Below, in pieces: positions 1,186 through 48,195 of a stretch of DNA of 64,000 nt (position 1 is its first letter; every line of letters starts with the position of its first letter). Source of the stretch: a virus; UHGV virus genome UHGV-0277313; one strand, written 5' to 3'. A model generated the notes under the pieces. That model did no database searches and was not told the origin of the DNA. It saw only the letters and a program-made list of their open reading frames with translations. A program made the translations under genes and the position numbers.

Positions 1186-2268
1186 ATGGCTAATGCTGGT
1201 TGTGCTCGTTGGGCTTATAACTATGTTGTCGGTAAAGAAACTGAATCTTTAAAGAGCAATAAATATATTCCTGTTAATGATTTAAGAAAAGAAGTTACAA
1301 AATTAAAACAAACAGATGAATTAAATTGGTTATTTAATTATGATTGTGATATTGTTAAGCAATCAATGAAAGATGCTGATAAAGCATTCAGAACATTTTT
1401 TAAGAATAAACAGAAATTTGGATTTCCTAAATTTCATTCTAAACATTCATCTAAACAATCTTTTTATGTTGATGGTGTTAAATTAAAAGTTTGGTCGAAT
1501 AAAATCAGAGTACCAAAAGTAGGTTATGTTAAGTTATATGAAAAAGATTATATTCCAACGGATGTTAAAAGTTATACCAATCCAAGAATTTTATTTGATG
1601 GAATAAGTTGGTATATTTCTGTTGGTGTAAAAGAAGATGATCCTAAAAAGATTACAAATAATGTTGTTATTGGCATTGATTTAGGATTAAAGGAATTAGC
1701 AACATGTTCCAATGGACTTGTTATCCATAATATATCCAAATCAAAAAGATATAAAAAGTTAGAAAAGAAATTAAAAAGACAACAAAGGCAAATGTCAAGA
1801 TCCTTAGAAAGGAATAAGATTGGAAAGAAATTTGTCAAGACAAAGAACTTTGAGAAATATAGAAAGAGATATTTAAAGACAAGTATTAAGATGAATAATC
1901 TGAAGATAGATTATTTCAATAAATCTATTGTAGATATCATGAAAACCAAGTGTTGTACAATAGTTCTCGAAGATTTAGCTGTAAAGAATATGCAGAAAAA
2001 TAGAAAAATATCTAATGCTTTTCAGAAATCTGCTATTTCTCAGTTTAGATCAAGATTGATTCAGAAAGCTGAAATGCTTGGTGTCAGTATATCTATCGCA
2101 GATAGATTCTTTCCAAGTTCAAAGATGTGTTCTCATTGTGGACATATTAAAAAAGATCTGACATTGTCAGATAGAATATATCATTGTGATATATGTGGGT
2201 TTGAGGTTGATCGTGATTTAAATGCTGCGATCAATCTCAAGAATACCGTGAGATCCACGGGAATTTAA
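1186..2268 (+). CDS. tnpB: TnpB (IS200/IS605 OrfB family) RuvC-like RNA-guided nuclease
   Basis: RuvC-I motif IGIDLGLKELATCSNG and RuvC-II motif IVLEDLAVKNM. Zinc finger CSHCGH...HCDICG followed by RuvC-III motif DRDLNAAINL. An upstream in-frame 14-codon extension (from ATG 1129) ends at an amber codon inside the conserved N-terminal motif. Confidence 0.85.
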   Translation: MANAGCARWAYNYVVGKETESLKSNKYIPVNDLRKEVTKLKQTDELNWLFNYDCDIVKQSMKDADKAFRTFFKNKQKFGFPKFHSKHSSKQSFYVDGVKLKVWSNKIRVPKVGYVKLYEKDYIPTDVKSYTNPRILFDGISWYISVGVKEDDPKKITNNVVIGIDLGLKELATCSNGLVIHNISKSKRYKKLEKKLKRQQRQMSRSLERNKIGKKFVKTKNFEKYRKRYLKTSIKMNNLKIDYFNKSIVDIMKTKCCTIVLEDLAVKNMQKNRKISNAFQKSAISQFRSRLIQKAEMLGVSISIADRFFPSSKMCSHCGHIKKDLTLSDRIYHCDICGFEVDRDLNAAINLKNTVRSTGI

Positions 2269-4991: not shown

Positions 4992-5020
4992 TTGACATTT
5001 ATTCTTTAATGATATAGCAT
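4992..5020 (+). promoter_or_regulatory. Sigma70-like promoter (TTGACA, ~17-nt spacer, weak -10) upstream of 5049
   Basis: TTGACA at 4992-4997. GAAGGAAGGTG Shine-Dalgarno sequence follows before the start. Confidence 0.35.
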
Positions 5021-5048: not shown

Positions 5049-5462
5049 GTGATGAAAATTCGTTTAAGTCAAGAAGAAATGAAACAAGTAACAATCTTGC
5101 GTAATATCTTTAAAGGAAGATATGTTGAATGTTTTTTAAATTCTTCTGATAAGAACACAAGCGTTGTTCGTGTTTTGAAGAAACAAGAAAGAGTTTTTCA
5201 AGGAAGCTATTGGAATCAATCACATGAACCTCTTCGTGCAGACGTTAATGTGTTTTACTTTAGTTCATCTGATGCAGTTTCGTTGTATGTGAAGGCATTT
5301 TATGACAACAAGGAAATTGGGTTCAATATTGAAATTGATATAAATGATTTACGACAGGTTACAAAACAGACTGTATTAACGGATTTAAAGTTAACACCTT
5401 TAGTTAAAGGTGTGGTTATAAAATTAAAAGATTTGGGACAAACAACATTGGAATCAATTTAA
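5049..5462 (+). CDS. Small protein of the conserved C-terminal-tail family (ends ...LKDLGQTTLESI)
   Basis: Shine-Dalgarno GGAAGGTG upstream. C-terminal nonapeptide fits h-G-x3-L-[EDN]-x-[IV]. Confidence 0.6.
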   Translation: MMKIRLSQEEMKQVTILRNIFKGRYVECFLNSSDKNTSVVRVLKKQERVFQGSYWNQSHEPLRADVNVFYFSSSDAVSLYVKAFYDNKEIGFNIEIDINDLRQVTKQTVLTDLKLTPLVKGVVIKLKDLGQTTLESI

Positions 5463-5474
5463 GGGTAACTAGTT

Positions 5475-5786
5475 ATGATTAAACCTATTGAAGAAAATAT
5501 TGAGCTGTTGGAAAATCTTTTGAAAAAACATTTAAAAGGTTTTGTACAATTTTCTGAAAAAGATGATAATGTTGAAATTGACAATGGTTTCATTTGTTTT
5601 AAAATGATTCAAGTTACAGATGGTTTTTCTGGTTATTCTTTAAATATGCGTATGTTGCTATCCGAATTGATGTTAATAACTAAAAAAACACAATCAAATG
5701 AAATTGAGTTACATTATAATTGGGACAATGATTTTGTGGATGTTTCTATAAAAGAGGCTGGTGTATATACGCTTGAGACTGTTTAA
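5475..5786 (+). CDS. C-terminal-tail family protein (ends ...IKEAGVYTLETV)
   Basis: Tandem to 5049..5462. Shared C-terminal motif. Confidence 0.55.
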   Translation: MIKPIEENIELLENLLKKHLKGFVQFSEKDDNVEIDNGFICFKMIQVTDGFSGYSLNMRMLLSELMLITKKTQSNEIELHYNWDNDFVDVSIKEAGVYTLETV

Positions 5787-6145
5787 TGATTGATGACGCG
5801 CTTTCTAAAAAGATTGCAAAATTAGCAACAAAGTTACACAATAAAAAATTTGTTGATGAAGATAATAATGAATTCGTTGTTCGTATATCCCCGAAAATTT
5901 ATGAAACACATACAAAAAAATATATAGACTTTTGGTTGGATAGTAATTACTATTTGCTACGGATTTTAGCTGTTCATAAAAATTTTTTATTTAGAAGAAG
6001 AAAGTGGTTTCATATTCAAATACCTATTGATGATTTTGCAAATATAGATTTAGATTTATCATCAATCACATTTACAAAATGTAAAGATAGTGTTATCAAA
6101 TTAAAATTTGTTGATATTGGAACAGCTTGTTTGAATGAAATTTAA
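5786..6145 (+). CDS. C-terminal-tail family protein (ends ...VDIGTACLNEI)
   Basis: Start overlaps the stop of 5475..5786. Shared C-terminal motif. Confidence 0.55.
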   Translation: MIDDALSKKIAKLATKLHNKKFVDEDNNEFVVRISPKIYETHTKKYIDFWLDSNYYLLRILAVHKNFLFRRRKWFHIQIPIDDFANIDLDLSSITFTKCKDSVIKLKFVDIGTACLNEI

Positions 6146-6147
6146 TG

Positions 6148-6176
6148 TTGACATTGTGCAAAATTTAATATAATAT
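6148..6176 (+). promoter_or_regulatory. Sigma70-like promoter TTGACA-N17-TAATAT
   Basis: TTGACA at 6148-6153 and TAATAT at 6171-6176. An AGGAGAAAG Shine-Dalgarno sequence follows. Confidence 0.5.
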
Positions 6177-6205
6177 ATTTATATAGTTTTAGGAGAAAGT
6201 GGCAT

Positions 6206-6649
6206 ATGAGAATTTTTGTTGTTCCAAGAAAGTATATCAAAATGTTTATGCATACAGATATGTTTTTTAAACATAATAACTTTATCAGTATTGGTGAAGT
6301 TGCAGGTTATGAAGGAGTACCTGTTAATACTGAAAATGTTTTAAAACTTGTGTTCGACGATATGTCAGATAAAGAAACAGTTGGAACATTGTTTACCGAA
6401 GAACATGCCATTCAAATTAAAAACTTTGTTGATCGTATTGATAAAAGTAAAACTTTGTATGTTAACTGTTTCGCAGGTATATCAAGAAGCGGTGCAGTTG
6501 GTACGGTGATTAACGATTATGTCAACTGTTATCTTAACGGGTTGAAAAAGAATGAAGATTGGTATTCATTCTTTGACGATAATAAACAAATCAAACCAAA
6601 TGCTTATATTATGAGGGTTATGAATAAAACGTTTGGATTGACATATTAA
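6206..6649 (+). CDS. Cys-based protein phosphatase (CX5R, dual-specificity/tyrosine phosphatase-like)
   Basis: VNCFAGISRSGAVG matches the CxAGxxRSG signature. Confidence 0.55.
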   Translation: MRIFVVPRKYIKMFMHTDMFFKHNNFISIGEVAGYEGVPVNTENVLKLVFDDMSDKETVGTLFTEEHAIQIKNFVDRIDKSKTLYVNCFAGISRSGAVGTVINDYVNCYLNGLKKNEDWYSFFDDNKQIKPNAYIMRVMNKTFGLTY

Positions 6650-6663
6650 ATTAGGAGGGTAAA

Positions 6664-6945
6664 ATGAAATTGTGCAAAGATAAATTCAAAGAAAAGGTTG
6701 GTTATTTTTATCTTGATGCTATTGATTGGGTTTGTAATGACACAGATCTTAACAATTTCATTTTACCTGAAAAGACAGAATTTATGTCAATTAAAGAAAT
6801 GATTCGATATGCTATTGATAATGTCCCTGCATCTGCAACAGAATCATTTGCACAATTTCATTACATTAAAAATGATGTGATAAAAGAAGAAACAGCGTTG
6901 CTGTTTAAATATTACAACGGTTCGCTTAAAACATTTCAAATCTAA
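6664..6945 (+). CDS. Hypothetical protein
   Basis: Shine-Dalgarno AGGAGGG precedes ATG 6664. Confidence 0.5.
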   Translation: MKLCKDKFKEKVGYFYLDAIDWVCNDTDLNNFILPEKTEFMSIKEMIRYAIDNVPASATESFAQFHYIKNDVIKEETALLFKYYNGSLKTFQI

Positions 6946-6947
6946 AT

Positions 6948-7691
6948 TTATCCTGTTGATTTCATGTATGTAAAATCAAGAATTACACAACCAACTATTC
7001 CGTTTGTATATGCTGCGCCGTAGCTAGGTTGAAAACCCCCTGCTCCATAGCCTGTAGTTGTATCATCATATGCACTAGGTGTTGGCGCAAACACACTGAC
7101 TGAACCATATGGAACGGTATAGCCATTTTTATTTAAACTGTTACCTCCTGTTGCTGTACCACCATTTGCTGCATGGCCGTTGTCATACCAACCGCTCATT
7201 CCACCTTGACCGCCTGTTGCTTGCATGTTAATATTTGTTCCAACACAGCTAGAAGTACCACCATCAGCACCTTTATGACCACCCGCTGAAGTAGGCCCGC
7301 CAGCTGCTGCACCTGCGGCGCACGCTCCAGCTTTACCAACAATACAAGTTAAACTCTGAAGACTTAAATCTTTTGCTGCTGTGCCAGTAAAGACGCTTTT
7401 ACATACAGCGCCACTGCCACCTGAACGACCACACCATTTATTACCGTGATAGAATGTGCTTTCACCGCTACCACCACCGCCGCCGACGACCGTAATTGTT
7501 AACGACAATAATTCTTTAGGTAAAGTAAAGCTATACGTTCCAGCAACGTTAAATGTTTTGTTTTCAGTTGTTTGAACTTTAGTAACATAAACCAGCTGTT
7601 TACCTTTGTAGACTCTCCTAATATTTTTATTATCAGAAGATATTTTTGTTAAATTTTTATTAGACTTTTTTATTGTCATCATTCTTCTCAC
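6948..7691 (-). CDS. Gly/Cys-rich structural-type protein (KVYKG...TITVVGGGGGSG family)
   Basis: N-terminal RVYKGKQLVY motif, then LTITVVGGGGGSG and a long Gly/Ala/Cys-rich region. Paralogs lie at 27744, 33744, 27270, 26638 and 40198. Confidence 0.6.
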   Translation of the reverse strand: MRRMMTIKKSNKNLTKISSDNKNIRRVYKGKQLVYVTKVQTTENKTFNVAGTYSFTLPKELLSLTITVVGGGGGSGESTFYHGNKWCGRSGGSGAVCKSVFTGTAAKDLSLQSLTCIVGKAGACAAGAAAGGPTSAGGHKGADGGTSSCVGTNINMQATGGQGGMSGWYDNGHAANGGTATGGNSLNKNGYTVPYGSVSVFAPTPSAYDDTTTGYGAGGFQPSYGAAYTNGIVGCVILDFTYMKSTG

Positions 7692-7751
7692 TAATTACTA
7701 TTTATCGTAAGAACAAAGATTTATGTGATAAACAAATAACACTAAACAAAA

Positions 7752-7775
7752 ATGCCGGGCTAAAGTGCTCGGCAT
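7752..7775. terminator. Rho-independent terminator hairpin, bidirectional (A-run / T-run flanks)
   Basis: ATGCCGGGC-taaagt-GCTCGGCAT stem-loop flanked by AAAAA and TTTTT. Confidence 0.6.
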
Positions 7776-7800
7776 TTTTGTTTATTTATCTAATTCAATC

Positions 7801-8160
7801 TCAAAATTCAAAGACATAAGGTAATTCATCTTCACGAATTTCGAAAATCTTATCATGTGTCTTTACGAATCCATGTTCAACCAGATATTCAACAAAACCA
7901 TAAAAAGGTGATTTTGCATCTTTCAACAAAGCGTCTTTATACATTTTTCTTAAGTTGAAATCTTTAATAACAAGAAAAGTTGTATGTTTTGCATCAGCAT
8001 CATTGTCGGCAAATTCATTTAATTCAATTAATTCGCCAGCATGACAATCGAAGCCTTCAGGCTCATATGTATCCCAATCACGTTCGATTTGATCTTCGTT
8101 AAGATATGAACGAACAAATTTACGATAGGATTCTTCGATTTTATTTTTAGAATCAGTCAT
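7801..8160 (-). CDS. Hypothetical protein
   Basis: 119-aa ORF followed by a terminator hairpin. Confidence 0.5.
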   Translation of the reverse strand: MTDSKNKIEESYRKFVRSYLNEDQIERDWDTYEPEGFDCHAGELIELNEFADNDADAKHTTFLVIKDFNLRKMYKDALLKDAKSPFYGFVEYLVEHGFVKTHDKIFEIREDELPYVFEF

Positions 8161-8346
8161 TATTAAAACCTTTAGTTAAGTTGCAACTGAATAAAGAACA
8201 AACTTAAAGACAATCAGCTTGACTTTTGTTTTTTAATTTGATATTTTAAAAACTTCACACAAACCAATGAAAATTGAAGAAAATTTCTTGCAAAATTTCA
8301 TCGTTTGAGTTAATATAGAATAAATTGAGAAAAGAAGAAACGGAAA

Positions 8347-9540
8347 ATGATTCGCAGTTCAGCATTGACGTTAAAATTTGCAACAAGCAAAAAGCTGAAC
8401 ACCTTGGATTTGGTGTTTGACGAGTATGTCCGTGTTGTGAATTTGTATATTGATGCCTTGAGCCAATCAAAAGAACTGCCTAAATTCATCAATTTCAAAG
8501 TGGATACTTGGATTTCTGTTCAGCTCCAGCAAGTAGCTGGCAAACAAGCAGTGGAAATAATAAAATCTACCAGAAAGAAAGATCGAGAGATTAGATTGAA
8601 GAAATACAAGAAAACCTACAAGTATTTCTTAAATAAACAACGACAAAAGAAATTCATTAGCACGAAATTCAGCGAATTGAGATTGAATTACAAAATAAAA
8701 CCAAGGTATGATGGGAAAGTAATTCCGTTTGATCAACGCCAGTTTTCTTTATGTAAGTCAAATAATTCGTTTGACTTCTGGGTTCATTTGCGTTGCCTTG
8801 GTAATAAATTTATTTTGGATTTGCCTTTGAAAAATCACAAGCACAATAAACAGTTTATAGATTGGAAACGAGTGGGTTCTTGTAGGTTGCTTAGAAACAA
8901 TGGGAAATACAAAATTGAGTTGATTTATGAAAAAGAAGCTCCTAAATTAGCTAAACCAACAAAAATACTTGCAATAGATGCAGGAATTAATTGCTTGATG
9001 TCTTGCTCAGATGGACGACAGCTTGGTTTAGAACTGAAGAAATTACTCAATGAATTGAATCAGAAACAACAGAAATCTAAATCATACACTCGTAAATTGA
9101 ACCAAATACATAACTATGTCCGTTGGTGCGTGAACCAGCTAAATTGGGGTAATTTATCTGATTTGGTGATTGAAAATCTGAAATACATTCAGATTGATAC
9201 GAAGAAGCGAGTTAATAAAGTAACTTGTAAGTTGCTTTCCAAATGGAATTTGGGTTTATGGCGTAAAGCCATAGAACAAAAATGTGAAGAAAACTGTGTT
9301 TATTTGCATTATGTTAATCCCAAAGACACAAGCAGAACTTGTCCTAAATGCGGAAGCATTGACAAGGAAAACAGAAACGGTGAATTATTTCATTGCATAA
9401 ATTGTGGCTATGAAGCAAATGCTGACCTCAATGCAGCAATGAATATACTCACCCGGTTTTATCAGGAGAAACCTTTGCAGGTTGATATAGTCCTTGATTC
9501 TGCGAAAACTAATTTTAGTGATTTCATTAATTTTCATTAA
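8347..9540 (+). CDS. tnpB: TnpB-like RuvC nuclease (IS605 OrfB / IS607-type)
   Basis: RuvC-I motif ILAIDAGINCLMSC and RuvC-II motif LVIENLKYI. Zinc finger CPKCGS...HCINCGY and RuvC-III motif NADLNAAMNIL. Confidence 0.8.
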   Translation: MIRSSALTLKFATSKKLNTLDLVFDEYVRVVNLYIDALSQSKELPKFINFKVDTWISVQLQQVAGKQAVEIIKSTRKKDREIRLKKYKKTYKYFLNKQRQKKFISTKFSELRLNYKIKPRYDGKVIPFDQRQFSLCKSNNSFDFWVHLRCLGNKFILDLPLKNHKHNKQFIDWKRVGSCRLLRNNGKYKIELIYEKEAPKLAKPTKILAIDAGINCLMSCSDGRQLGLELKKLLNELNQKQQKSKSYTRKLNQIHNYVRWCVNQLNWGNLSDLVIENLKYIQIDTKKRVNKVTCKLLSKWNLGLWRKAIEQKCEENCVYLHYVNPKDTSRTCPKCGSIDKENRNGELFHCINCGYEANADLNAAMNILTRFYQEKPLQVDIVLDSAKTNFSDFINFH

Positions 9541-9583
9541 AATTGGTAACTATTGTAATTCCAATAACGAATTGAGGTTTAAT

Positions 9584-10492
9584 ATGACATTTAATGACTT
9601 TTTGAAAATTAATGAAATCAAGGCATTGTTTAATTGCCCTGAAAATCTGATCTATCACCCTGAAGGCAATACAGGTGGTCATGTTGTCAAAGCATTAGAA
9701 TGGTTAAATGCCAATTGCCCTTCTGAATACAAACACGATTGTTATATTGCAACATTGCTTCATGATATAGGAAAACCTTTAACGGAAAAGGAAAAGTTTC
9801 CTAAACATCCTAAACATGATGTATTGGGTGCTGAATTTATTACAAACAATTCAAATTTTCGTAAGGCTGTAGAGGATATTTACGGTGTTGTTGATTGGAA
9901 ATTTGTCGAAAATGTTTGCCGTTATCACATGGTTTTTTGGCATTTTAAAGATAGAAATAAACGTGCATCTAGCTTTTTAACTTTATTAGAAGATGTAGGC
10001 TATAAAAATATTGATAAATTTTTATGGTGTGTATTCGCTGATAATTGTAGTAATGACAATGTGAATGATAAAAGCTATGTAACATTGTTTCAGTTGTGTA
10101 AAGACTTGTTTAAAGACTTGAAAAACATGTGCGACAAAGTCATAGAACCTAGTCATAAATATAAACAATGGAAGAATATGTATTGGGAAACTAAAGTGCG
10201 AGTCTGTTCGGATGTTGTTAATACATTTAATAAAGAATCCAAAATTGTTGTGTTTGATGATTTGGTTCAATCTTTCATGAATATGCTAAAGAAAAAAGAA
10301 GGCAGTCAAATTAGCAATGATTCTGTTTCAATAAACAAAGAAAATTCGACATTATGGTTTAATGTTAACAATGTAAATTATGTTATTGAAGTTTTTGATT
10401 TGCAAAAATGTAATTGTCGAGTCATTGCACCTGATTTATTTGAATTTAGATTTAGCACAGATTTCAACGTTTGGTTTGTTCGATTTAAATAA
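9584..10492 (+). CDS. HD-domain phosphohydrolase
   Basis: H...LLHDIGKP...HPKHD...H pattern. GAGGT Shine-Dalgarno precedes ATG 9584; the track ORF starting at 9494 overlaps tnpB. Confidence 0.55.
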   Translation: MTFNDFLKINEIKALFNCPENLIYHPEGNTGGHVVKALEWLNANCPSEYKHDCYIATLLHDIGKPLTEKEKFPKHPKHDVLGAEFITNNSNFRKAVEDIYGVVDWKFVENVCRYHMVFWHFKDRNKRASSFLTLLEDVGYKNIDKFLWCVFADNCSNDNVNDKSYVTLFQLCKDLFKDLKNMCDKVIEPSHKYKQWKNMYWETKVRVCSDVVNTFNKESKIVVFDDLVQSFMNMLKKKEGSQISNDSVSINKENSTLWFNVNNVNYVIEVFDLQKCNCRVIAPDLFEFRFSTDFNVWFVRFK

Positions 10493-10872
10493 TGCTTTTT
10501 AAAAATCTTTTATTTAGTACATCGTGGATAACAAATGAAAAAGTTGATGAATTTGTAAATTCAATAAATGGTTTACAATGTGAAGCACATGTATCATTCG
10601 AAGGGCAAAGAGATGCGGTTATTAATCAGACTTCTAAAGTTGCAATCGCAAGTGATTACGACGTTTATTTCATAAATTTAAATTGCGTAATCAACAATAA
10701 AAAAGCTAAATTTAGTTTAATAGAAACGTTTTGTTTTGATCGAGGTTGGTTTGATAACACTAAATCTTTTGTTGGAAAGGAATATAAAATATTGTATAAA
10801 GATACAGTTAAAGGGCGTGTTCAATTTATCAGTGAAAAAGATGTAGGTGAAAGTTTGTTGGGAGACGTTTAA
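10492..10872 (+). CDS. C-terminal-tail family protein (ends ...KDVGESLLGDV)
   Basis: Shared C-terminal motif. Tandem cluster of three. Confidence 0.55.
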   Translation: MLFKNLLFSTSWITNEKVDEFVNSINGLQCEAHVSFEGQRDAVINQTSKVAIASDYDVYFINLNCVINNKKAKFSLIETFCFDRGWFDNTKSFVGKEYKILYKDTVKGRVQFISEKDVGESLLGDV

Positions 10873-11276
10873 TGGAAGATATAGACATTGCAAAAAGAAA
10901 TTTTTCAAAGATATGTGACAAGTTTTTAGGACAAACTATAACTTGTCAATTTAAAGGATATATTGTTACACAGATTAAACGAATAAATATTCATTTGAAT
11001 GAAAATTTTCACTTTTACGAATGGATTGAACAACCTATTGGGAATGCATTACCTCAATTTAAGGATTGTTTTGAAATTCCTTTTGAAGCTGAAAGCGAAG
11101 TAAAAGGTAATGACGTAGTAAAAGGTAATTGTGTGCAATTTCCAGTATTTGTAAATACGAATGTTTTATTCAAAAATAATAGACAATTGATTTTTAAATA
11201 TGGATTGATTTTTGATTGCTTATATTGTGAAGTAGAAGCAGAAGAAGTTGGATTATCTGTTTTAAACGAGGTTTGA
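10872..11276 (+). CDS. C-terminal-tail family protein (ends ...EEVGLSVLNEV)
   Basis: Shared C-terminal motif. Confidence 0.55.
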   Translation: MEDIDIAKRNFSKICDKFLGQTITCQFKGYIVTQIKRINIHLNENFHFYEWIEQPIGNALPQFKDCFEIPFEAESEVKGNDVVKGNCVQFPVFVNTNVLFKNNRQLIFKYGLIFDCLYCEVEAEEVGLSVLNEV

Positions 11277-11735
11277 ATGAAATTAAAATATGTTTATTGG
11301 TGTTTATTTTTATCGCCTCAACTTGCTATGTTGATAGGGGACTGTTGGCATTTTGCACCTGCCATAATTTTATTCCCGTTGCTTCCTATATTTACTATTG
11401 ATTTTAGTTTCAATCATTGTACAAACTATTTAACAGTACACAATGTTACTGTAAAACGTTTGGTTGTAAAGGGCAATGTTTTTTATGAGATAACAAATGA
11501 TTTTTATTATAGGCTTTCAGTTAATGAAAAAATTAATGAGTTACAAATTTTAACAACCAGTTTATCAGATTTTGATATGTTTATGTTTGATATTTTATTT
11601 AAACATGTTATTAATAATTGGGTCAAAAAACAGTTTAACGGGGAGTTAAAAATAAAATATATAAAATTACCTAATCAAATATGTTATAGACTTGAAAAAG
11701 TAGATATTGGTAATGTTTGTCTTAATTCAATTTAG
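11277..11735 (+). CDS. C-terminal-tail family protein with hydrophobic N-terminus (ends ...VDIGNVCLNSI)
   Basis: Shared C-terminal motif. The N-terminal 45 aa are hydrophobic. Confidence 0.5.
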   Translation: MKLKYVYWCLFLSPQLAMLIGDCWHFAPAIILFPLLPIFTIDFSFNHCTNYLTVHNVTVKRLVVKGNVFYEITNDFYYRLSVNEKINELQILTTSLSDFDMFMFDILFKHVINNWVKKQFNGELKIKYIKLPNQICYRLEKVDIGNVCLNSI

Positions 11736-11747
11736 AGGTGTGTGTAA

Positions 11748-12374
11748 ATGTCAACAGAATATTTTTATATTAAAGAATCGACAAAAGAATTATTTGATTT
11801 AGGAAATGGTGGTCATTATTATGATTTGTATGAATTAATCTTGAAAAAGATTAGGTCTTTTCAAAAGTCAGGAACATCGATTGATGTTGTAAAAGAAAAG
11901 TTAAAGCCGTACATTTTAGAAGAATTCCAGTATTTTGATCCTGATACAACTGAAGATGATTCATATTTATGTTTTTTTGTTGAACGAGTTATTCCTTCTT
12001 TGTTAAATTGGATTGATGACACAACAAACCTGATAAATGATTATGAATTAGTTGTATCTGTCGAAAAAGAATTTGGTAAAGAATTTTGTGAGAACTTCTA
12101 TGAAGAAAATCATAAAAGTTATGTAGATCAAGTATACAAAACTGTCGGTTCAATTTATGAAGATGAAACATTCGAAAATGGTATTATTGATCGTTCAGTT
12201 ACTTTTGATCGTGTGTTGATTGAATTGAAGCACGGGAAGACAGCATATCGTAAAAGTAAACCGAATATCATCTTTGGTTTGTTACCAAATGGCATATTTT
12301 CAGTTAATGATCATGGCGTTATCTTAATAAAAACAGATGATATTTTAGCAAATGATTGGATTGTTGTTGACTAA
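11748..12374 (+). CDS. Hypothetical protein
   Basis: Shine-Dalgarno GAGGTG. 208 aa. Confidence 0.55.
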   Translation: MSTEYFYIKESTKELFDLGNGGHYYDLYELILKKIRSFQKSGTSIDVVKEKLKPYILEEFQYFDPDTTEDDSYLCFFVERVIPSLLNWIDDTTNLINDYELVVSVEKEFGKEFCENFYEENHKSYVDQVYKTVGSIYEDETFENGIIDRSVTFDRVLIELKHGKTAYRKSKPNIIFGLLPNGIFSVNDHGVILIKTDDILANDWIVVD

Positions 12375-12426
12375 ATTATGAAAATGATATATTATTATTT
12401 CATGTAGTAAATTCGGAGACAAGTTC

Positions 12427-12726
12427 ATGACTGAAAATTTAACAAAATCGGTAGAGAATTTCATATTATCAAATAAGATATATGGTTATGAAGTTTTGTC
12501 TATCTGTTCTGTTGAAGAATCTTTTCAGAAAGATTATCTTGCTATTGAATTAACAATTAAAACAGATACTTCTTTTAATACTGTAGAACATTGTGTATGG
12601 ATTAGTAAAAAATATCTTGATGAAAAAGTGTATAAACATTTTAGGTATCAGCAACATAAAGATAAACAATGGGTAAGTGAAATTGTTCCGATTGAGATTG
12701 GTGAATTTGCTTTAGAGTCAATTTAA
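12427..12726 (+). CDS. C-terminal-tail family protein (ends ...IEIGEFALESI)
   Basis: Shine-Dalgarno GGAGA. Shared C-terminal motif. Confidence 0.55.
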   Translation: MTENLTKSVENFILSNKIYGYEVLSICSVEESFQKDYLAIELTIKTDTSFNTVEHCVWISKKYLDEKVYKHFRYQQHKDKQWVSEIVPIEIGEFALESI

Positions 12727-12736
12727 AGAGAAACGA

Positions 12737-12928
12737 ATGATTGTAAATTTAATAGAAAGTCAAATAGTCAACAGAATAGATTGTGAACATTTAAAACGTG
12801 TCGAAGATTTAGATAAGTTGGAATGTTTTAACGATTTAATAATGACAGATCTGAAAGAATGCGAAAAAGAACATCTGAAAATTTACAATAAACAAATCGA
12901 AAAAGCGGGAACTTTTAATGGCCAATAA
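12737..12928 (+). CDS. Small hypothetical protein
   Basis: 63-aa ORF between family members. Confidence 0.35.
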   Translation: MIVNLIESQIVNRIDCEHLKRVEDLDKLECFNDLIMTDLKECEKEHLKIYNKQIEKAGTFNGQ

Positions 12929-13253
12929 AAATAAAAAGCTTGAGAGAATATATCAATTATTAAATGAAAAGAATTCAACGTTTTGTTTATATGATCGAGA
13001 AGTATATTTAAAAACATGTCATATATTTCAATTCGATGAATACAATAATGAATACACTGTTGCTGGAGAAATTCATTTAGATAAAGAGCGAACAGAGCAG
13101 CCTTTAGGGTATATAGTTGTAAGAGTCAGTAAAGAAGCTTTAAAATCTTTTCCGTATGTGTTTGAAAAAGGAGATTTAAAGTTAACCGAAAAAGGGTTGT
13201 CTGTCTTCGTGGAAAGAAAAGAGGTTGGAAAAGTTGTTTTAGATAATGTTTAA
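12918..13253 (+). CDS. C-terminal-tail family protein (ends ...KEVGKVVLDNV)
   Basis: Shared C-terminal motif. Confidence 0.55.
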   Translation: MANKNKKLERIYQLLNEKNSTFCLYDREVYLKTCHIFQFDEYNNEYTVAGEIHLDKERTEQPLGYIVVRVSKEALKSFPYVFEKGDLKLTEKGLSVFVERKEVGKVVLDNV

Positions 13254-13257
13254 TTAG

Positions 13258-13286
13258 TTGACATATAGCTTTTTATATGATATATT
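13258..13286 (+). promoter_or_regulatory. Sigma70-like promoter TTGACA-N17-TATATT
   Basis: TTGACA at 13258-13263 and TATATT at 13281-13286. Confidence 0.5.
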
Positions 13287-13756
13287 ACAAAATATAAATT
13301 CTCATCCAAATGTTATTTTTAAAATATATCTTGATTTCTAAATTGATATGAGGTAATCTAAAAGAATAGAAGTTTATCTATAAAGTTTTAAAATTAAGTT
13401 GGAAGGTTTGTGATTTTGTTATACAAGGTGACTAAATCAATGGAAGAAAGAGGATACTTTGTTTAGGTTACAAATTCAACTTGATTTTAAATACAAAAGA
13501 AAATCTGAGTGAAATAAAGGTTTTCTCCTTAGAAATAAGGTTGTTTTTAGATTCATGTCATCTAAATCTATATAAATTTTATAATAGTTTAGAGTGGTGA
13601 GTTATTTTAAGAGAGGTATTTTTGTTTTGCTAAGTTTAGGTGTTGTCTTTACTGTTGTTGCAGTATTAGGTTTCGTTTGGGCAATCAAATTGTCTAAAGT
13701 TGTAGAAAAGGCTGATAAAGCCGATCATGAAAATAAAAACTAATTGAGGTGTGGAA

Positions 13757-14905
13757 ATGTCTTTTAAAAGCTTGACAATCGTTACGATCGTAGTGTGTTT
13801 AGTGCTTTTTGTTTGTTTAGCAGGAGGTCTGTTTGAAACAAACAGTTTTGGAAATTATCAGATTAAACAGGCGGCTGTTACTGGCCATGTAACCGTTCGG
13901 ACGGCGCCAGGTCTTTATTGGCAAGGATTTGGGCAAATCACTACATACCCTGTTTCTGAAGACCTTGATTTTGAAGATTCAAATATGACTGTACGTTTCA
14001 ATGATGGATCTGTTGCTAGTGTGAAAGGTACAGTCAAATACAAATTGCCAATGTTAGAAAAATTGCAGATGGAATTGCATCGTGACTATGGCTCGTTTAA
14101 AAATGTTGAAGAAGATTTGATTCGCAAAAATGTTGCTGAAGCATTGTCACAGGCCGCTACGTTGATGGTTGCTGAAGATTCATATTCTGCAAGACGTGCT
14201 GAATTTTCAGATGCGGCGAAGAAACAGTTGGAAAACGGCATTTTCAAAACGTCTACAAAAGTTGTTGATTCGACTGATGAAAATGGAACAAAATTCAAAC
14301 AGCGCATCATTAACATTGTTTATGATAATGAAGGGAACCCTATCGTTCAGAAGAAGTCGTTGTTGAAGCACTACGGAATTGAAATTCTTCAGTTTGTTGT
14401 AAATGATTTTGGCTACGATTCTAAAATTAACGATTTGATTTCGAAAAAGAAAGAAGCTGAACAGTTAAAAGTTGTTAGTACGGCAAACGCTGAACGTGCT
14501 AAACAGGATGCTTTAACAGCTGAAGCGCAAGGGAAGGCCAGAATTGCAGAAGCCCGTGCAAATGCTGAAGTACAGAAAACTACAGAAGTCGTAGAAGCAC
14601 AGAAACGTGCTGAAGTAGCTAAACTTGCGGCTGAACAGGCTAAATACGAAGCCTTGAAGGTCAAGCAGGAAGGTGAGGCTGAAGCATATGCAAATAAACT
14701 GAAAGTGCAAGCGGGTTTGACACCTTTAGAAAAAGCAACAATCGAAAAAGAAACCCGCATTGGAATTGCAAAAGCATTGGCTAGCGTTAAATTTCCTGAA
14801 CACATGATCATTTCAGGTGGTAGTTCAGGTACAAGTTCAACAAATCCTTTTGACGCAGTAGGACTTAAAGCACTCTACGAATTGTCAAATAGTTTGAATA
14901 AATAA
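13757..14905 (+). CDS. SPFH / band-7 (HflK/C-flotillin-like) membrane protein
   Basis: N-terminal transmembrane helix, then an SPFH-like region. Long Ala/Glu/Lys/Gln coiled-coil (AEAQGKARIAEARANAEVQK...). Shine-Dalgarno GAGGTG precedes ATG 13757. Confidence 0.65.
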   Translation: MSFKSLTIVTIVVCLVLFVCLAGGLFETNSFGNYQIKQAAVTGHVTVRTAPGLYWQGFGQITTYPVSEDLDFEDSNMTVRFNDGSVASVKGTVKYKLPMLEKLQMELHRDYGSFKNVEEDLIRKNVAEALSQAATLMVAEDSYSARRAEFSDAAKKQLENGIFKTSTKVVDSTDENGTKFKQRIINIVYDNEGNPIVQKKSLLKHYGIEILQFVVNDFGYDSKINDLISKKKEAEQLKVVSTANAERAKQDALTAEAQGKARIAEARANAEVQKTTEVVEAQKRAEVAKLAAEQAKYEALKVKQEGEAEAYANKLKVQAGLTPLEKATIEKETRIGIAKALASVKFPEHMIISGGSSGTSSTNPFDAVGLKALYELSNSLNK

Positions 14906-14911
14906 ACTCAA

Positions 14912-14947
14912 ACAGAAGCGAAGTTCAAATACTTCGCTTCTGTTTTG
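14912..14947 (+). terminator. Rho-independent terminator
   Basis: CAGAAGCGAAGT-tcaaat-ACTTCGCTTCTG followed by TTTTG. Confidence 0.7.
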
Positions 14948-14949
14948 TC

Positions 14950-14978
14950 TTGACATTGCATCTTAATCAGCATAGAAT
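14950..14978 (+). promoter_or_regulatory. Sigma70-like promoter TTGACA-N17-TAGAAT
   Basis: TTGACA at 14950-14955 and TAGAAT at 14973-14978. Confidence 0.5.
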
Positions 14979-15006
14979 GAATTTAAATAAACAAATAGGT
15001 GACAAA

Positions 15007-15348
15007 ATGACTAATTGCTTAATGAATGCTACATATACTAAAATGCAAGAAAGGTTGTTGTCTGATGATAACTTAAAAGCATTTACAGTATGTTGTGATA
15101 TAGTTAAAAATGAATTCTTTTTTATTGAACGTATTGATTCTGATGCCGTAATCACAAACAACAACAAATACAAAGACTATATTAGTTTGTGGGATTATCA
15201 AATCGAACAATTGTCAAATGAAGGCGTTGAATGGATTAGACGTTTATTAGATCGTGACAATATTTTAATTGTAACGAAATGCAACAACAAAGAAGACTGC
15301 ATTAAATTAATTAAAGAATTGGAAAAAGTCAAATTCAACGTTCATTAA
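15007..15348 (+). CDS. Hypothetical protein
   Basis: Shine-Dalgarno AGGTGA precedes ATG 15007, downstream of the promoter. Confidence 0.5.
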   Translation: MTNCLMNATYTKMQERLLSDDNLKAFTVCCDIVKNEFFFIERIDSDAVITNNNKYKDYISLWDYQIEQLSNEGVEWIRRLLDRDNILIVTKCNNKEDCIKLIKELEKVKFNVH

Positions 15349-15599
15349 ACATAATAATCTTTTGAATTCTGTTCGTTTAAAACTTCTTCTTCTTCATGAG
15401 CTTTTTGACAATGGTTTCGGGAACCCGTGAAAATAGAAAAGAACACGTCAAGAGAGAAACATATTATAATAAATATTATGTTGCCTTCATATGATTTTCT
15501 ATAGCTTCTTGCCGCAATAGTTTCATCAGGATGCCCAAACAAAATACTGTTAAAAAGTTGGCTGATAGCAATTAAAATGTTTTTGATATATTGTTTCAT
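15345..15599 (-). CDS. Small membrane protein
   Basis: 84 aa with hydrophobic segments. Confidence 0.4.
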   Translation of the reverse strand: MKQYIKNILIAISQLFNSILFGHPDETIAARSYRKSYEGNIIFIIICFSLDVFFSIFTGSRNHCQKAHEEEEVLNEQNSKDYYV

Positions 15600-15700
15600 C
15601 TATTCACCTATATTCTTTCTTTTAAGAACAAATAAAACTTGACAATTTCGTTTGCTTGTTTTATCTTTAGAGTGTAAATAGAAATTTGAGGTAATTTTAT

Positions 15701-16168
15701 ATGGGAAAGATTAATAAGAAATATAAAGCCAATATTTACCGTGATTCATGGGCGATCGATGTGGCTTTTTATGCATGGTTGTTGCCTAGATTAAAAGCTT
15801 TTAGAGATTATACAAATGGTTGGCCTAATCAATTGTATGATACGTTTGAAGATTTTATTGCTGATATCGATGAAAAAATCAAATGGCTAGAGTTTTTGTA
15901 TAAAGCAACATGTAATAGAAAAGATATTAAAATTACAAAAGAAGAAATTGATTCATTATTTAACGAAGAAATGAATGACAAATATTATGAAGGCGATTGG
16001 AGACATTGGCTTAATTTAAAGCCTTTACATATGAAATGTGGGGACTTTGAAAAAATATATGATGAAGATGAAAGTCACTATATTTGGAAACAGGAAATTT
16101 TAACAAATGTTTTAGGTAAAGCATTTGGTGAATGGTTTGGTAAAAATTATTCGACTTTATGGTGGTAA
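15701..16168 (+). CDS. Hypothetical protein
   Basis: TTGACA-N17-TATCTT upstream at ~15640. Shine-Dalgarno GAGGT. Confidence 0.55.
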   Translation: MGKINKKYKANIYRDSWAIDVAFYAWLLPRLKAFRDYTNGWPNQLYDTFEDFIADIDEKIKWLEFLYKATCNRKDIKITKEEIDSLFNEEMNDKYYEGDWRHWLNLKPLHMKCGDFEKIYDEDESHYIWKQEILTNVLGKAFGEWFGKNYSTLWW

Positions 16169-16174
16169 ACTTTA

Positions 16175-16372
16175 ATGAAGAATTTTATCTTGTGTTTATC
16201 TAAATTGCAACTATTGTTTGTTGTGGTTATGACAATAGTTGTCTTAACACAAGTTTTTAACGAAACCGAAGAAAGCCTTTTTATATTCAAAGTTTATATG
16301 TTGTTTAATGTTTTTTCTGTAGCTTTATGGTTGTTTGGTGATATTGTTGCAGAAGATTTAGAAAGCAATTGA
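16175..16372 (+). CDS. Small transmembrane protein
   Basis: 65 aa with two hydrophobic helices. Confidence 0.35.
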   Translation: MKNFILCLSKLQLLFVVVMTIVVLTQVFNETEESLFIFKVYMLFNVFSVALWLFGDIVAEDLESN

Positions 16373-16380
16373 TTGTTTAA

Positions 16381-16743
16381 ATGATTAGCAAAAAAGATTT
16401 TTTAGATTATAAAGATCCACATTTCCAAAAGATATTGAAAATTATTCAAAGTCATTGCTATACATATGTCACAGATTGTTTACACGATATCTGTGGTGGA
16501 AGCTGTAGAAATGGAAAGAACACATTTATTCAAAAATGGGATATTCAAGGTTGTAATACAGCAATAGATTCAGTTTGGGTTCAGGTTTATTCAAAAAGCA
16601 GGCATGCCTATTTTGCACATGAAGATTGTTTCAGAAGGGAACATTTATCTTTTAATGAATTAAACTTCTTAACAGATAAATATACAAAAACAAAATATAT
16701 TTCATTGAAAGAATGTGGTGAAGCTGTGTTGGAGTCGATTTAA
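16381..16743 (+). CDS. C-terminal-tail family protein (ends ...KECGEAVLESI)
   Basis: Shared C-terminal motif. Confidence 0.55.
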   Translation: MISKKDFLDYKDPHFQKILKIIQSHCYTYVTDCLHDICGGSCRNGKNTFIQKWDIQGCNTAIDSVWVQVYSKSRHAYFAHEDCFRREHLSFNELNFLTDKYTKTKYISLKECGEAVLESI

Positions 16744-48176: not shown

Positions 48177-48195
48177 TAGTGAGTTATTTTAATAA

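What the first reader, a model, noticed from the sequence alone, without database searches (positions are those of the whole stretch)
5049..16743. Nine small, otherwise dissimilar proteins share an invariant C-terminal nonapeptide ending -G-x-x-x-L-[EDN]-x-[IV]-COOH
Nine ORFs of 99-152 aa end in the same motif at the extreme C-terminus:
- 5049 ...DLGQTTLESI
- 5475 ...EAGVYTLETV
- 5786 ...DIGTACLNEI
- 10492 ...DVGESLLGDV
- 10872 ...EVGLSVLNEV
- 11277 ...DIGNVCLNSI
- 12427 ...EIGEFALESI
- 12918 ...EVGKVVLDNV
- 16381 ...ECGEAVLESI

They sit in three tandem clusters and their bodies are highly divergent. A conserved C-terminal tag on a diversified paralog family looks like a shared recognition signal rather than a shared fold. 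Candidate roles are capsid targeting, a protease or adaptor degron, or a PDZ/strand-complementation ligand. I do not recognise the motif as described.
Basis: seen in the sequence. Interest (0 to 1): 0.8.

Follow-up and report, generated by a model that had tools for sequence, protein, structure and literature searches.

The report
Expanded phage protein family, fixed C-terminus
The nine small proteins are real and belong to a much larger gene family (36 copies in a related jumbo phage) found only in this phage lineage; the members probably share one fold and all end in the same short peptide, whose function is unknown but which most likely acts as a common docking handle.

Summary
Observation confirmed. 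All nine + strand ORFs end [DE]-h-G-x3-L-[EDNG]-x-[IV]-stop. A tail scoring matrix separates them cleanly from every other ORF end and every internal 14-mer in the window. Synonymous codon variation shows the selection is on the protein, not the DNA.

The nine are the edge of a much larger family. A 314-kb relative (R) has 36 members: 27 in a 15-kb array upstream of the window-equivalent region, plus orthologs of all nine. A third lineage has 13 in 20 kb, with gene gain and loss.

In 58 members, G is kept in 56 and L in 56, the last residue is always hydrophobic, and every protein stops exactly three residues after the L (M in two). Amino acids change about 4x faster than in neighbouring genes, but under purifying selection.

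The claim 'a shared tag rather than a shared fold' is not supported. Conservation extends about 45-70 residues. Tail-trimmed profiles resemble each other more than decoys do. Two AlphaFold models have the same element order, with the tail at low confidence.

No match in Pfam, PHROGs, PADLOC, PDB, BFVD or 1.84 billion representative proteins.

Best guess: diversified early proteins carrying a common terminal docking peptide. Rivals: a purely structural cap; a site for the phage's radical-SAM/SPASM enzymes or M16 peptidase; a degron; a packaging signal.

The parts
5049..5462 (+). Family member o5049 (136-137 aa; the start may be ATG 5052). Ends ...KLKDLGQTTLESI
   Evidence: leave-one-out tail score 15.5 bits. 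Ortholog in R is 52.5% identical and keeps the tail
5475..5786 (+). Family member o5475 (103 aa). Ends ...SIKEAGVYTLETV. Its stop overlaps the next start (TAATG)
   Evidence: R ortholog 42.7% identical
5786..6145 (+). Family member o5786 (119 aa). Ends ...KFVDIGTACLNEI. AlphaFold model m1d7a40281b9f
   Evidence: R ortholog 27.5% identical. An exhaustive HMMER search finds only its own lineage
10492..10872 (+). Family member o10492 (126 aa). Ends ...SEKDVGESLLGDV
   Evidence: R ortholog 34% identical
10872..11276 (+). Family member o10872 (134 aa). Ends ...AEEVGLSVLNEV. Many population variants, with a variable loop and a 7-residue indel at about residues 78-90
11277..11735 (+). Family member o11277 (152 aa). 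Ends ...KVDIGNVCLNSI. The only ortholog group with an N-terminal membrane-like hydrophobic segment
   Evidence: The R ortholog ends ...CLNSF
12427..12726 (+). Family member o12427 (99 aa). Ends ...PIEIGEFALESI. AlphaFold model md43001d7341c
12918..13253 (+). Family member o12918 (111 aa). Ends ...RKEVGKVVLDNV
   Evidence: R ortholog 64% identical
16381..16743 (+). Family member o16381 (120 aa, Cys/His-rich body). Ends ...LKECGEAVLESI
   Evidence: R ortholog 64% identical, tail 9/10 identical
4992..5020 (+). Sigma-70-like promoter candidate (TTGACA-17-TAGCAT) in the gap before o5049. Inferred, not shown
   Evidence: The overall promoter-like count is not above the shuffles, so this is only a consensus match in the right place
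12367..12395 (+). Sigma-70-like promoter candidate (TTGACT-17-TATTAT) before o12427. Inferred

Best explanation
The nine ORFs belong to a lineage-specific multigene family that has expanded in tandem in one clade of gut jumbo phages (about 277-314 kb). The related phage R carries 36 copies, about 13 kb or 4% of its genome.

Shown:
- Members are small (median about 120 aa), mostly cytoplasmic and fast-evolving, yet under purifying selection.
- They are arranged in tightly packed, often start/stop-overlapping + strand runs.
- All end with a strictly terminal, conserved cap: [DE]-[IVL]-G-p-x-[VCTI]-L-[NED]-p-[IVLF]-COOH.

Probable:
- They share one alpha/beta fold: N-terminal helix, antiparallel strands, short helix, beta-hairpin.

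Inferred mechanism:
- The variable bodies have diversified, by gene birth and death, to engage different targets during early or middle infection.
- The invariant terminal peptide, whose free end must sit exactly three residues after the Leu, is a common handle that docks every member onto the same partner site on a phage or host hub protein.
- This would be like other strictly C-terminal docking peptides.
- The partner has not been identified.
For: Family and expansion:
- Nine members in the window.
- 36 in relative R, including a 27-gene array.
- 13 in 20 kb of a third lineage, with unequal content.

Real genes:
- Synteny across lineages.
- Pooled dN 0.46 versus 0.12 for neighbours, with omega about 0.3.

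Protein-level selection on the tail:
- Synonymous codon variation at conserved positions.

Strict terminality and logo:
- G 56/58, L 56/58, last residue hydrophobic 58/58, none extended or truncated.

Shared fold:
- Common architecture in the alignments.
- Body-only hhalign scores exceed reversed decoys, p = 1.4e-10.
- A 5-member subgroup plus several pairs are linked by BLAST or hhalign.
- Two AlphaFold models (pLDDT 73.7 and 75.3) show the same element order.

Tail behaves like a binding motif:
- Lowest pLDDT (about 50) in both models although it is the most conserved segment.

Context:
- Members sit among nucleotide-metabolism, nuclease, phosphatase, methylase and tRNA genes rather than inside the virion module.
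- Exact TTGACA boxes lie in the + strand gaps.

Lineage restriction and novelty.
Against: - No partner has been identified. No PDZ, TPR or ring-protease candidate was seen in the regions examined, which total roughly 110 kb of a genome of about 310 kb.
- The tail could simply be the most constrained structural element of the fold. In one model it forms a short amphipathic helix, with -5, -4 and -1 on one face.
- Both models used the same family-wide alignment, so their matching topology is not fully independent evidence.
- Sequence evidence for body homology is weak for most of the 33 groups.
- Expression timing is inferred from context only. Promoter-like sites are not enriched overall.
- The host is unknown.
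Confidence: 0.45

Rival explanations
1. Structural cap only. The conserved C-terminus is the most constrained piece of a shared fold: a Gly turn followed by a short amphipathic helix or strand whose V/C/T, L and terminal I/V plug the hydrophobic core. It has no separate recognition role. The family is simply a divergent lineage-specific expansion with unknown and diverse functions.
For: - The hydrophobic pattern at -5, -4 and -1 with Gly at -8 fits one face of a short helix.
- Model 1 predicts a helix at residues 91-97.
- Conservation extends into the preceding strands, as expected of a fold and not an appended tag.
- In highly divergent families, Gly turns and core hydrophobic residues are typically the last residues to change (general knowledge).
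Against: - Exact termination in 58/58 members across 33 divergent groups is unusual for a purely structural element. Domain families normally tolerate variable C-terminal overhangs (inference).
- The tail has the lowest pLDDT in both models, and in model 2 it is coil.
- Polar positions -10 (D/E) and -3 (N/E/D) are also conserved.
Confidence: 0.27
2. Enzyme recognition or modification site. The tail is the recognition sequence or modification site for the phage's own radical-SAM/SPASM maturase-like enzymes and/or the M16 metallopeptidase that follows the array about 3 kb downstream. This would be a phage-encoded protein or peptide maturation system with dozens of substrates, for example epimerisation or cross-linking in the tail, or cleavage after the invariant Gly to release a heptapeptide.
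For: - Eleven window ORFs have an N-terminal CxxxCxxC motif. The seven in the second array also have Cys-rich C-termini.
- ORF 54308-55285 aligns over nearly its full length to DynA, PapB, TIGR04083 and the anaerobic sulfatase maturase, although far below the curated cut-offs.
- An M16 peptidase with intact HxxEH follows the array (after a Pnkp-like gene, about 3 kb downstream) in both R and T.
- From general knowledge: the PQQ and subtilosin pathways pair radical-SAM enzymes with M16 peptidases, and mycofactocin's MftC acts on the extreme C-terminus of MftA.
- The tail is predicted flexible and accessible.
- No other substrate for these enzymes is evident.
Against: - Family genes are not interleaved with the radical-SAM genes. 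The nearest are 3.5 kb apart, and the main array is tens of kb away.
- There is no invariant Cys, aromatic, Lys or acidic acceptor of the kind used by known cross-linking maturases. Only G and L are invariant.
- Members are 100-160 aa proteins with a predicted fold, unlike typical precursors.
- No RRE domain was detected.
- All similarity scores are far below family cut-offs.
Confidence: 0.13
3. Degron. The tail is a C-terminal degradation signal read by a host AAA+ protease (ClpXP, ClpAP, Lon or FtsH). It would give all these early proteins a short, synchronised lifetime, or titrate the protease.
For: - Strictly terminal, with a hydrophobic last residue and low-confidence structure.
- C-terminal degrons are a known way to time-limit proteins (general knowledge: ssrA, MuA).
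Against: - Known C-terminal degrons are specified mainly by the last 2-5 mostly non-polar residues (for example LAA). Here -2 and -3 are polar, and the conserved footprint spans 10 or more residues with fixed spacing to a Gly.
- There is no obvious reason for about 40 paralogs to keep a degron under purifying selection.
Confidence: 0.06
4. Virion packaging signal. The tail targets the proteins into the capsid, or onto a virion scaffold, so that they are injected with the DNA.
For: - Jumbo phages package paralogous internal proteins, and T4 uses a short capsid-targeting sequence (general knowledge).
- Tail and baseplate genes lie within 10-15 kb of the window members.
Against: - The genes lie outside the structural module, among early-type genes, and face exact TTGACA boxes.
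- Known capsid-targeting sequences are N-terminal and are cleaved at protease sites.
- Packaging about 36 different small proteins has no precedent that I know of.
- No prohead protease motif was seen.
Confidence: 0.05

Closest known systems
Lineage-specific expansions in jumbo phages, e.g. the ~35-copy Zn-ribbon family of Bacillus phage G (Iyer et al. 2021, PMC7824862)
   Same: Dozens of small paralogs within one jumbo-phage genome, with a proposed role in phage-host conflict or regulation. The copy number is similar: 36 in R.
   Different: It is a different domain: no Zn-ribbon, and no Pfam or PHROG match. Here the unifying feature is a strictly C-terminal peptide, and the bodies are so divergent that most pairs are undetectable by sequence.
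Strictly C-terminal docking peptides: HbYX tails of proteasome activators, the HslU C-terminal octapeptide, PDZ class II/III ligands, EEVD-TPR
   Same: A short motif that must sit at the free C-terminus with a hydrophobic last residue. This matches the 58/58 exact termination.
   Different: None of the defining residues match. There is no penultimate Tyr (HbYX). The -3 position is acidic in only 21/58 (PDZ class III). There is no EEVD. No cognate receptor domain was found in the regions examined. This is a resemblance in logic only, not membership.
Large-virus multigene families with a variable body and a conserved C-terminal adaptor motif (poxvirus ankyrin/PRANC F-box-like proteins)
   Same: Many tandem, rapidly turning-over paralogs. 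The variable part is thought to bind diverse targets, and the conserved C-terminal element docks all of them onto one hub.
   Different: Those are eukaryotic viruses, with a roughly 30-residue F-box-like helix bundle and ankyrin-repeat bodies. Here it is a phage, with a roughly 10-residue cap and a small alpha/beta body. No hub is known.
RiPP or protein-maturation substrates with a shared recognition sequence (prochlorosin/Nif11 precursor families; mycofactocin MftA C-terminus; PqqA with the M16 protease PqqF)
   Same: Many paralogous substrates share one short conserved segment. Radical-SAM/SPASM-like enzymes and an M16 peptidase are encoded in the same genome.
   Different: The conserved segment is C-terminal and the variable part is a large body with a predicted fold. 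There is no invariant modifiable residue other than G and L. The genes are not adjacent to the radical-SAM genes. No RRE was detected.
T4 capsid-targeting sequence of internal proteins
   Same: A short shared peptide on otherwise different small phage proteins that directs them to one destination.
   Different: The T4 signal is N-terminal, is removed by the prohead protease at L-x-E, and occurs on a handful of proteins. Here the peptide is C-terminal, with no protease-site evidence, and occurs on dozens of proteins outside the structural module.

Membership tests
Any curated protein family (Pfam-A, PHROGs v4, PADLOC-DB, PDB sequences) | Significant profile match for the whole protein | tested here: not met
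   - Nine window members: no Pfam hit below E = 0.03 and no PHROG hit below E = 0.037.
- All 45 members: one chance-level Pfam hit and one chance-level PADLOC hit.
- Family profile against PDB sequences: best E = 0.063.
PDZ class III C-terminal ligand ([DE]-x-hydrophobic-COOH) | Hydrophobic residue at the free C-terminus | tested here: met
   58/58 members end in I, V, L, F or M.
PDZ class III C-terminal ligand ([DE]-x-hydrophobic-COOH) | Acidic residue two positions before the last residue | tested here: not met
   The position is N in 24, E in 17 and D in 4 of 58, with K, G, Q, S or T in the rest. It is acidic in only 21/58.
PDZ class III C-terminal ligand ([DE]-x-hydrophobic-COOH) | A PDZ-domain receptor in the same compartment | tested here: inconclusive
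   - No PDZ domain among the precomputed Pfam hits for called genes in the regions examined.
- Members lack signal peptides, whereas bacterial PDZ proteases are mostly periplasmic.
- Most of the genome, and the host, were not examined.
ssrA-like / ClpX C-motif degron | Small non-polar last 2-3 residues (for example L-A-A-COOH) | tested here: not met
   Positions -2 and -3 are polar in most members (N, S, E, D), and the last residue is a bulky I, V or L.
HbYX proteasome-activator tail | Hydrophobic-Tyr-any at the C-terminus | tested here: not met
   No Tyr at -2 in any member.
Beta-clamp binding motif (Q-L-[SD]-L-F) | Gln followed by an L-x-L-F-type pentapeptide | tested here: not met
   There is no conserved Gln. 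The tail logo is G-p-x-[VCTI]-L-[NED]-p-[IVL].
Glycyl-radical domain (substrate of radical-SAM activases) | R-V-x-G-[FWY] fingerprint around the radical Gly | tested here: not met
   The residues before the Gly are [DE]-[IVL], and the residue after it is polar (E, N, Q or K), not aromatic.
T4-type capsid-targeting sequence | N-terminal location with a prohead-protease cleavage site | tested here: not met
   The shared peptide is at the C-terminus. The N-termini are not conserved.
RiPP precursor family | Conserved recognition segment shared by many paralogs | tested here: met
   The tail is conserved in 58 members.
RiPP precursor family | Precursor genes adjacent to the maturase, and an invariant modifiable residue in a short core | tested here: not met
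   - The nearest radical-SAM gene is 3.5 kb from o16381, and the main array is tens of kb away.
- Only G and L are invariant.
- The bodies are 90-150 aa with a predicted fold.
RiPP precursor family | Demonstrated modification or cleavage | not testable with these tools
   This needs mass spectrometry of co-expressed proteins.
[not shown]
   - BFVD: best E = 0.02, TM below 0.5.
- The models are only of medium confidence.

The most novel reading that the evidence does not exclude
The strictly terminal D-I-G-x3-L-N-x-I peptide is the common recognition or modification site of a phage-encoded protein-maturation system. On this reading, the roughly 11 radical-SAM enzymes in the window (seven with SPASM-like Cys-rich C-termini) and/or the M16 metallopeptidase that follows the array act on the tails of about 40 different small proteins, by epimerising, cross-linking or clipping them. 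That would be a RiPP-like pathway of unprecedented substrate multiplicity inside a bacteriophage.
Probability: 0.12. Interest if true: 0.9.

Novelty: new variant of a known kind. Interest (0 to 1): 0.62.

Why it matters
Jumbo phages are full of genes of unknown function, and lineage-specific expansions mark the genes a phage is investing in most heavily. Here one uncultivated gut jumbo-phage clade devotes about 4% of its genome (36 genes) to a single family. The family has no relatives among billions of database proteins, turns over quickly between close relatives, and yet preserves a 10-residue peptide that must end the protein.

Fast-evolving variable bodies combined with an invariant, strictly terminal handle is the signature of modular effector families in large eukaryotic viruses. 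To my knowledge, and in the held literature searched, it has not been described for phages.

If the handle docks onto a hub, the peptide is a ready-made bait for identifying a central node of this phage's infection programme. If it is instead a substrate site for the phage's unusual set of radical-SAM/SPASM enzymes, it would reveal a new kind of viral post-translational chemistry.

Either way, the finding gives a concrete, testable entry point: one synthetic decapeptide, or one residue added to the C-terminus.

Tried and rejected
1. DNA-level explanation (a repeat, promoter, terminator or recombination site overlapping the gene ends). Rejected: codons vary synonymously at conserved residues, and the sequences after the stop codon differ.

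2. A tenth window member at 42852-43349 (- strand). Rejected: 1.3 bits.

3. Body homology by BLASTP and iterative HMMs. This linked only one 5-member subgroup and a few pairs, and iteration did not extend. A tail-stripped HMM trained on the array gave only modest enrichment of held-out members.

4. The search for homologous proteins with ever-larger family alignments. The 18-sequence profile gave only same-lineage hits. The 45-sequence profile was too diluted and gave 11 hits. The C-terminal-45-residue profile seeded only 14 candidates and was wasted.

5. A family-wide profile for the exhaustive HMMER job. Offline tests showed held-out members score mostly below 20 bits, which is hopeless against 1.84 billion sequences.

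6. The search for related loci with a single member (o5049). Nothing found.

7. Megablast of the region against deposited phages. No match. The SPFH neighbour is only 31.5% identical to crAss001-like proteins, which is not informative about taxonomy.

9. Host identification through the phage's TnpB in 185,000 genomes. Best match 37%, uninformative.

Arrays were found only in contigs carrying R-lineage sequences. The pattern matches only about 15% of known tails, so absence elsewhere is weak evidence.

11. Literature searches for a described equivalent. None found.

12. Membership in glycyl-radical, HbYX, beta-clamp, ssrA and T4 capsid-targeting motifs. Considered and rejected on their defining residues.

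13. Looking up a non-window protein to walk further upstream in the window's own lineage.

Full report
OBSERVATION

The pattern G-x3-L-[EDNG]-x-[IV] occurs 12 times in about 119,000 six-frame positions of the window, and nine of those are the extreme C-termini of these ORFs.

A 14-residue position-specific matrix was scored with each ortholog group left out. It gives the nine tails 11.8-27 bits. The best of 29,838 internal 14-mers scores 8.8 bits, and the next-best ORF end scores 3.7 bits. A look-alike on the minus strand (42852-43349) scores 1.3 bits and is not a member.

At the conserved residues the codons differ synonymously (Leu TTG/CTT/TTA, Gly GGA/GGT), and the DNA after the stop codons is unrelated. 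The constraint is therefore on the protein, not on a nucleic-acid signal. With the last 12 residues removed, no pair of the nine gives a BLASTP E-value below 1.

WHAT GENOME THIS IS

The window is part of a recurrent, uncultivated jumbo phage. The exact proteins occur on metagenome scaffolds of 277-313 kb (ENA ERZ28615576, ERZ27290582, ERZ27290652). GC is about 30%.

The window carries:
- a tail-collar fibre, Phage_tail_APC and Gly_rich_2 proteins;
- two TnpB-type transposases;
- QueC-like, RNase-T-like, HD, DSP-phosphatase-like and SPFH proteins;
- thymidine and dNMP kinases, and a resolvase;
- two arrays of radical-SAM paralogs.

It has no close relative among deposited phages. The host could not be inferred.

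THE FAMILY IS MUCH LARGER THAN NINE

A related 314-kb contig, here called R (IMGVR_UViG_3300013426_000013), has orthologs of all nine in the same order. They are 27-64% identical to the window proteins, whereas most neighbouring genes are 69-98% identical. All keep the tail; one ends ...CLNSF.

I then walked upstream in R, past a D12 methyltransferase and the equivalent of a 13-tRNA array. This revealed an array of 27 further members between contig positions 52.1 and 67.3 kb. Almost every ORF there carries the tail, and two are on the opposite strand. R therefore has 36 members, about 4,340 codons or roughly 4% of the contig.

The window's own lineage has at least one more member upstream of the tRNA array (L010 3-152...AEFGETILNKI). 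A third lineage, T (ENA ERZ27271083 k141_55547), has 13 members in 20 kb. Some are 50-79% identical to R members, some only 27-39%, and one has no detectable counterpart, while the corresponding part of R is far richer in members. T is about as far from R as the window is: the M16 peptidase is 82% identical and the Pnkp-like protein 78%. The array therefore appears to evolve by gene birth and death.

THE MOTIF

In 58 members from the three lineages the logo is as follows:
- position -10: D/E in 40
- position -9: I/V/L in 50
- position -8: G in 56
- position -7: polar
- position -6: variable
- position -5: V/C/T/I in 53
- position -4: L in 56, M in the other 2
- position -3: N/E/D in 45
- position -2: polar
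- position -1: I/V/L/F/M in 58

Every member stops exactly three residues after the Leu. None is extended or truncated.

Members have a median length of 119.5 aa and a median pI of 5.9. Only the o11277 ortholog group has a membrane-like N-terminal segment. Genes are tightly packed, often with overlapping stop and start codons.

REAL GENES, FAST BUT CONSTRAINED

For window-R ortholog pairs, pooled dN is 0.46 for family bodies against 0.12 for twelve neighbours. Omega is about 0.3 against about 0.1, but dS is near saturation, so the ratios are rough. Population variants of o10872 concentrate their differences, including a 7-residue indel, in one loop (about residues 78-90), while the C-terminal 45 residues are almost invariant.

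SHARED FOLD OR SHARED TAG?

With the larger set, alignments show a common architecture over at least the last 45-70 residues: a strand, then a short [DK]-x-x-[LF]-[FYW]-[DN] helix, two strands, D-I-G, and the tail.

Sequence evidence for homology of the bodies is partial:
- BLASTP links a five-member subgroup (which also shares an N-terminal G-N-R-[YF]-[DE]-R-R-R motif) and two pairs.
- HMM iteration does not extend the subgroup.
- A tail-stripped HMM trained on the 27 array members places 11 of 18 held-out members in the top 43 of 173 sequences, and one reaches E = 6e-4.
- hhalign of 33 tail-trimmed ortholog groups adds two strong links. Its scores are shifted above reversed-alignment decoys (Mann-Whitney p = 1.4e-10; 21 of 528 pairs above the decoy 99th percentile against 5.3 expected).

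Two AlphaFold2 models of members from unlinked groups have medium confidence and the same order of elements:
- o12427: pLDDT 73.7, pTM 0.64.
- o5786: pLDDT 75.3, pTM 0.63.
- Both run N-terminal helix, three to four antiparallel strands, a short helix, a beta-hairpin, then the tail.

The caveat is that both predictions used the same family-wide alignment.

In both models the tail is the least confident segment (pLDDT about 50). It is a short helix in one model and coil in the other. I conclude that the family most probably shares one fold.

NO KNOWN RELATIVES

- Pfam, PHROGs and PADLOC give nothing beyond chance for any of 45 members.
- The family profile has no significant PDB sequence match.
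- BFVD gives nothing significant.
- Word-seeded searches of 5.8 billion proteins return only this lineage, and no source gives a functional name.
- An exhaustive HMMER search of 1.84 billion representatives with the most diverse ortholog group returns only its own cluster, one more ortholog, and one weak repeat-like hit in an unrelated 1304-aa protein.
- DNA-pattern scans for the tail coding sequence in IMG/VR and in a truncated metagenome scan find arrays only in contigs carrying R-lineage sequences. The pattern captures only about 15% of known tails, so this is weak negative evidence.
- I found no description in the held literature.
- For scale, Iyer et al. 2021 (PMC7824862) called a roughly 35-copy Zn-ribbon expansion in Bacillus phage G 'unprecedented' among jumbo phages.

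CONTEXT THAT BEARS ON MECHANISM

The members lie among nucleotide-metabolism, nuclease, phosphatase, methylase and tRNA genes, not inside the virion module. Exact TTGACA boxes with reasonable -10 elements sit in the + strand gaps before o5049 and o12427 and after 6145 and 13253. However, promoter-like sites are not enriched overall, so early or middle expression is inferred and not shown.

Downstream of the array, in both R and T, come a Pnkp-like RNA-repair protein (directly after the last member) and then, about 3 kb from the array, a 431-433-aa M16 peptidase with an intact HxxEH site.

The window encodes eleven proteins with an N-terminal CxxxCxxC motif. The seven in the second array also have Cys-rich C-termini. 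One of them (54308-55285) aligns over nearly its full length with radical-SAM/SPASM peptide or protein maturases (DynA, PapB, anaerobic sulfatase maturase), though far below the curated cut-offs. No PDZ, TPR or ring-protease candidate was seen in the regions examined, which total roughly 110 kb.

EXPLANATION

Shown: this is a lineage-specific, tandemly expanded, fast-evolving but constrained family with a strictly terminal conserved cap.

Probable: one shared alpha/beta fold.

Inferred, and my best guess (0.45): the bodies have diversified to bind different targets during infection, and the terminal peptide is a common handle that docks all members into one pocket of an unidentified phage or host hub. 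The supporting points are the requirement for an exact free end, the 10-residue footprint that includes conserved polar positions, and the low structural confidence of the tail.

Rivals:
- The cap is purely structural (0.27). It fits the amphipathic pattern and the continuity with the fold. It fits the exact termination in 33 divergent groups less well.
- The tail is the site recognised or modified by the phage's radical-SAM/SPASM enzymes or the M16 peptidase (0.13). This is attractive because those enzymes lack evident substrates. It is weakened by the lack of gene adjacency and of an invariant modifiable residue.
- A degron (0.06).
- A packaging signal (0.05).

Defining residues of PDZ class III ligands, HbYX tails, ssrA-type degrons, clamp-binding motifs, glycyl-radical fingerprints and T4 capsid-targeting sequences were checked against the logo and are not met.

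NOVELTY AND VERDICT

The kind of thing, a lineage-specific multigene expansion in a giant virus, is known. This family, its size, its restriction to one phage clade, and above all its invariant and strictly terminal peptide on otherwise hyper-divergent paralogs are new. It is a genuine, well-supported feature with an open mechanism and simple decisive experiments. Interest 0.62.

Noticed in passing
window 20218-25833 and 45055-55285: Two tandem arrays of paralogous ~260-370-aa proteins. Eleven carry an N-terminal CxxxCxxC radical-SAM motif (20218, 21078, 22031, 22963, 45055, 45999, 48196, 49289, 50353, 51249, 54308). The seven in the second array also have Cys-rich C-termini suggestive of SPASM/twitch domains. 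ORF 54308-55285 aligns over nearly its full length with DynA, PapB and anSME-type maturases, far below the curated cut-offs. Several array neighbours (23936, 24874, 52200-54311) lack the motif. A dozen radical-SAM genes in one phage is highly unusual, and their substrates are unknown.
   Followed up: partly
L013 14036-15337 (R) and L101 18629-19924 (T); Pnkp-like at L013 11155-13458 and L101 15513-17768: Downstream of the family array, both lineages encode a Pnkp-like protein (AAA_33 kinase + Metallophos + T4 RNA ligase 1) and then a 431-433-aa M16 (insulinase-type) peptidase with an intact HCLEH zinc site. An M16 peptidase is an unusual gene for a phage.
   Followed up: partly
L010 544-7485 (immediately upstream of window position 1): An array of 13 tRNA genes (Ser, Ile-tat, Tyr, Thr, Leu x2, Ser, Phe-aaa, Trp, Pro, Asn, Arg, Gln) lies between a D12 adenine methyltransferase and the window. 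It explains the long stretches without called genes.
   Followed up: partly
window 1186-2268 and 8347-9540: Two TnpB / IS605 OrfB-type (Cas12f-like TNB domain) genes lie inside the phage genome, one of them between two clusters of the family. The R relative seems to lack a counterpart of 8347-9540 at that spot, since no ortholog appeared in the L004 comparison.
   Followed up: no
window 10872-11276 (o10872) and proteins P0004-P0033: This member has about 25 separate 90%-identity clusters in public metagenomes. The differences and a 7-residue indel are concentrated at residues ~78-90, and the last 45 residues are almost invariant. This could be a population-level hypervariable loop.
   Followed up: partly
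R members at contig 55303, 58629, 60106, 60937 and 61534 (L013/L014); proteins P0035, P0038-P0040: A five-member subgroup of the family carries an extra conserved basic N-terminal motif, F-[LI]-G-N-R-[YF]-[DE]-R-R-R. This suggests an added function such as nucleic-acid binding in that subgroup.
   Followed up: no
L101 12846-13715 (- strand): A 289-aa ankyrin-repeat protein is inserted, on the opposite strand, inside the family array of lineage T. Ankyrin repeats are uncommon in phages.
   Followed up: no
window 6948-7691 (-), 27744-28382 (+), 33744-34385 (-); L010 9265-9921: Several paralogous Gly-rich proteins (Pfam Gly_rich_2) are scattered through the region. This is another small paralog family in this phage.
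   Followed up: no
window 16175-16372: A 65-aa strongly hydrophobic ORF lies directly upstream of o16381 and ends ...GDIVAEDLESN. This loosely echoes the tail (L-E-S) but does not score as a member. It is conserved in R (68% identity).
   Followed up: no
L013 6312-6704 and 2229-2615; L101 644-979: Some ORFs inside the arrays have degenerate tails (...SSLIGEFLTYDI; ...HSIGSVCMNDI) or no tail (...YAEEALKED). This suggests decay or functional divergence of individual copies.
   Followed up: no
window 6206-6649 and 11748-12374: A DSPc-like dual-specificity phosphatase candidate (E = 3e-5, below the Pfam cut-off) lies between family clusters. So does a conserved 208-aa protein with only a chance-level Tad2-like hit at its last 12 residues.
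   Followed up: no
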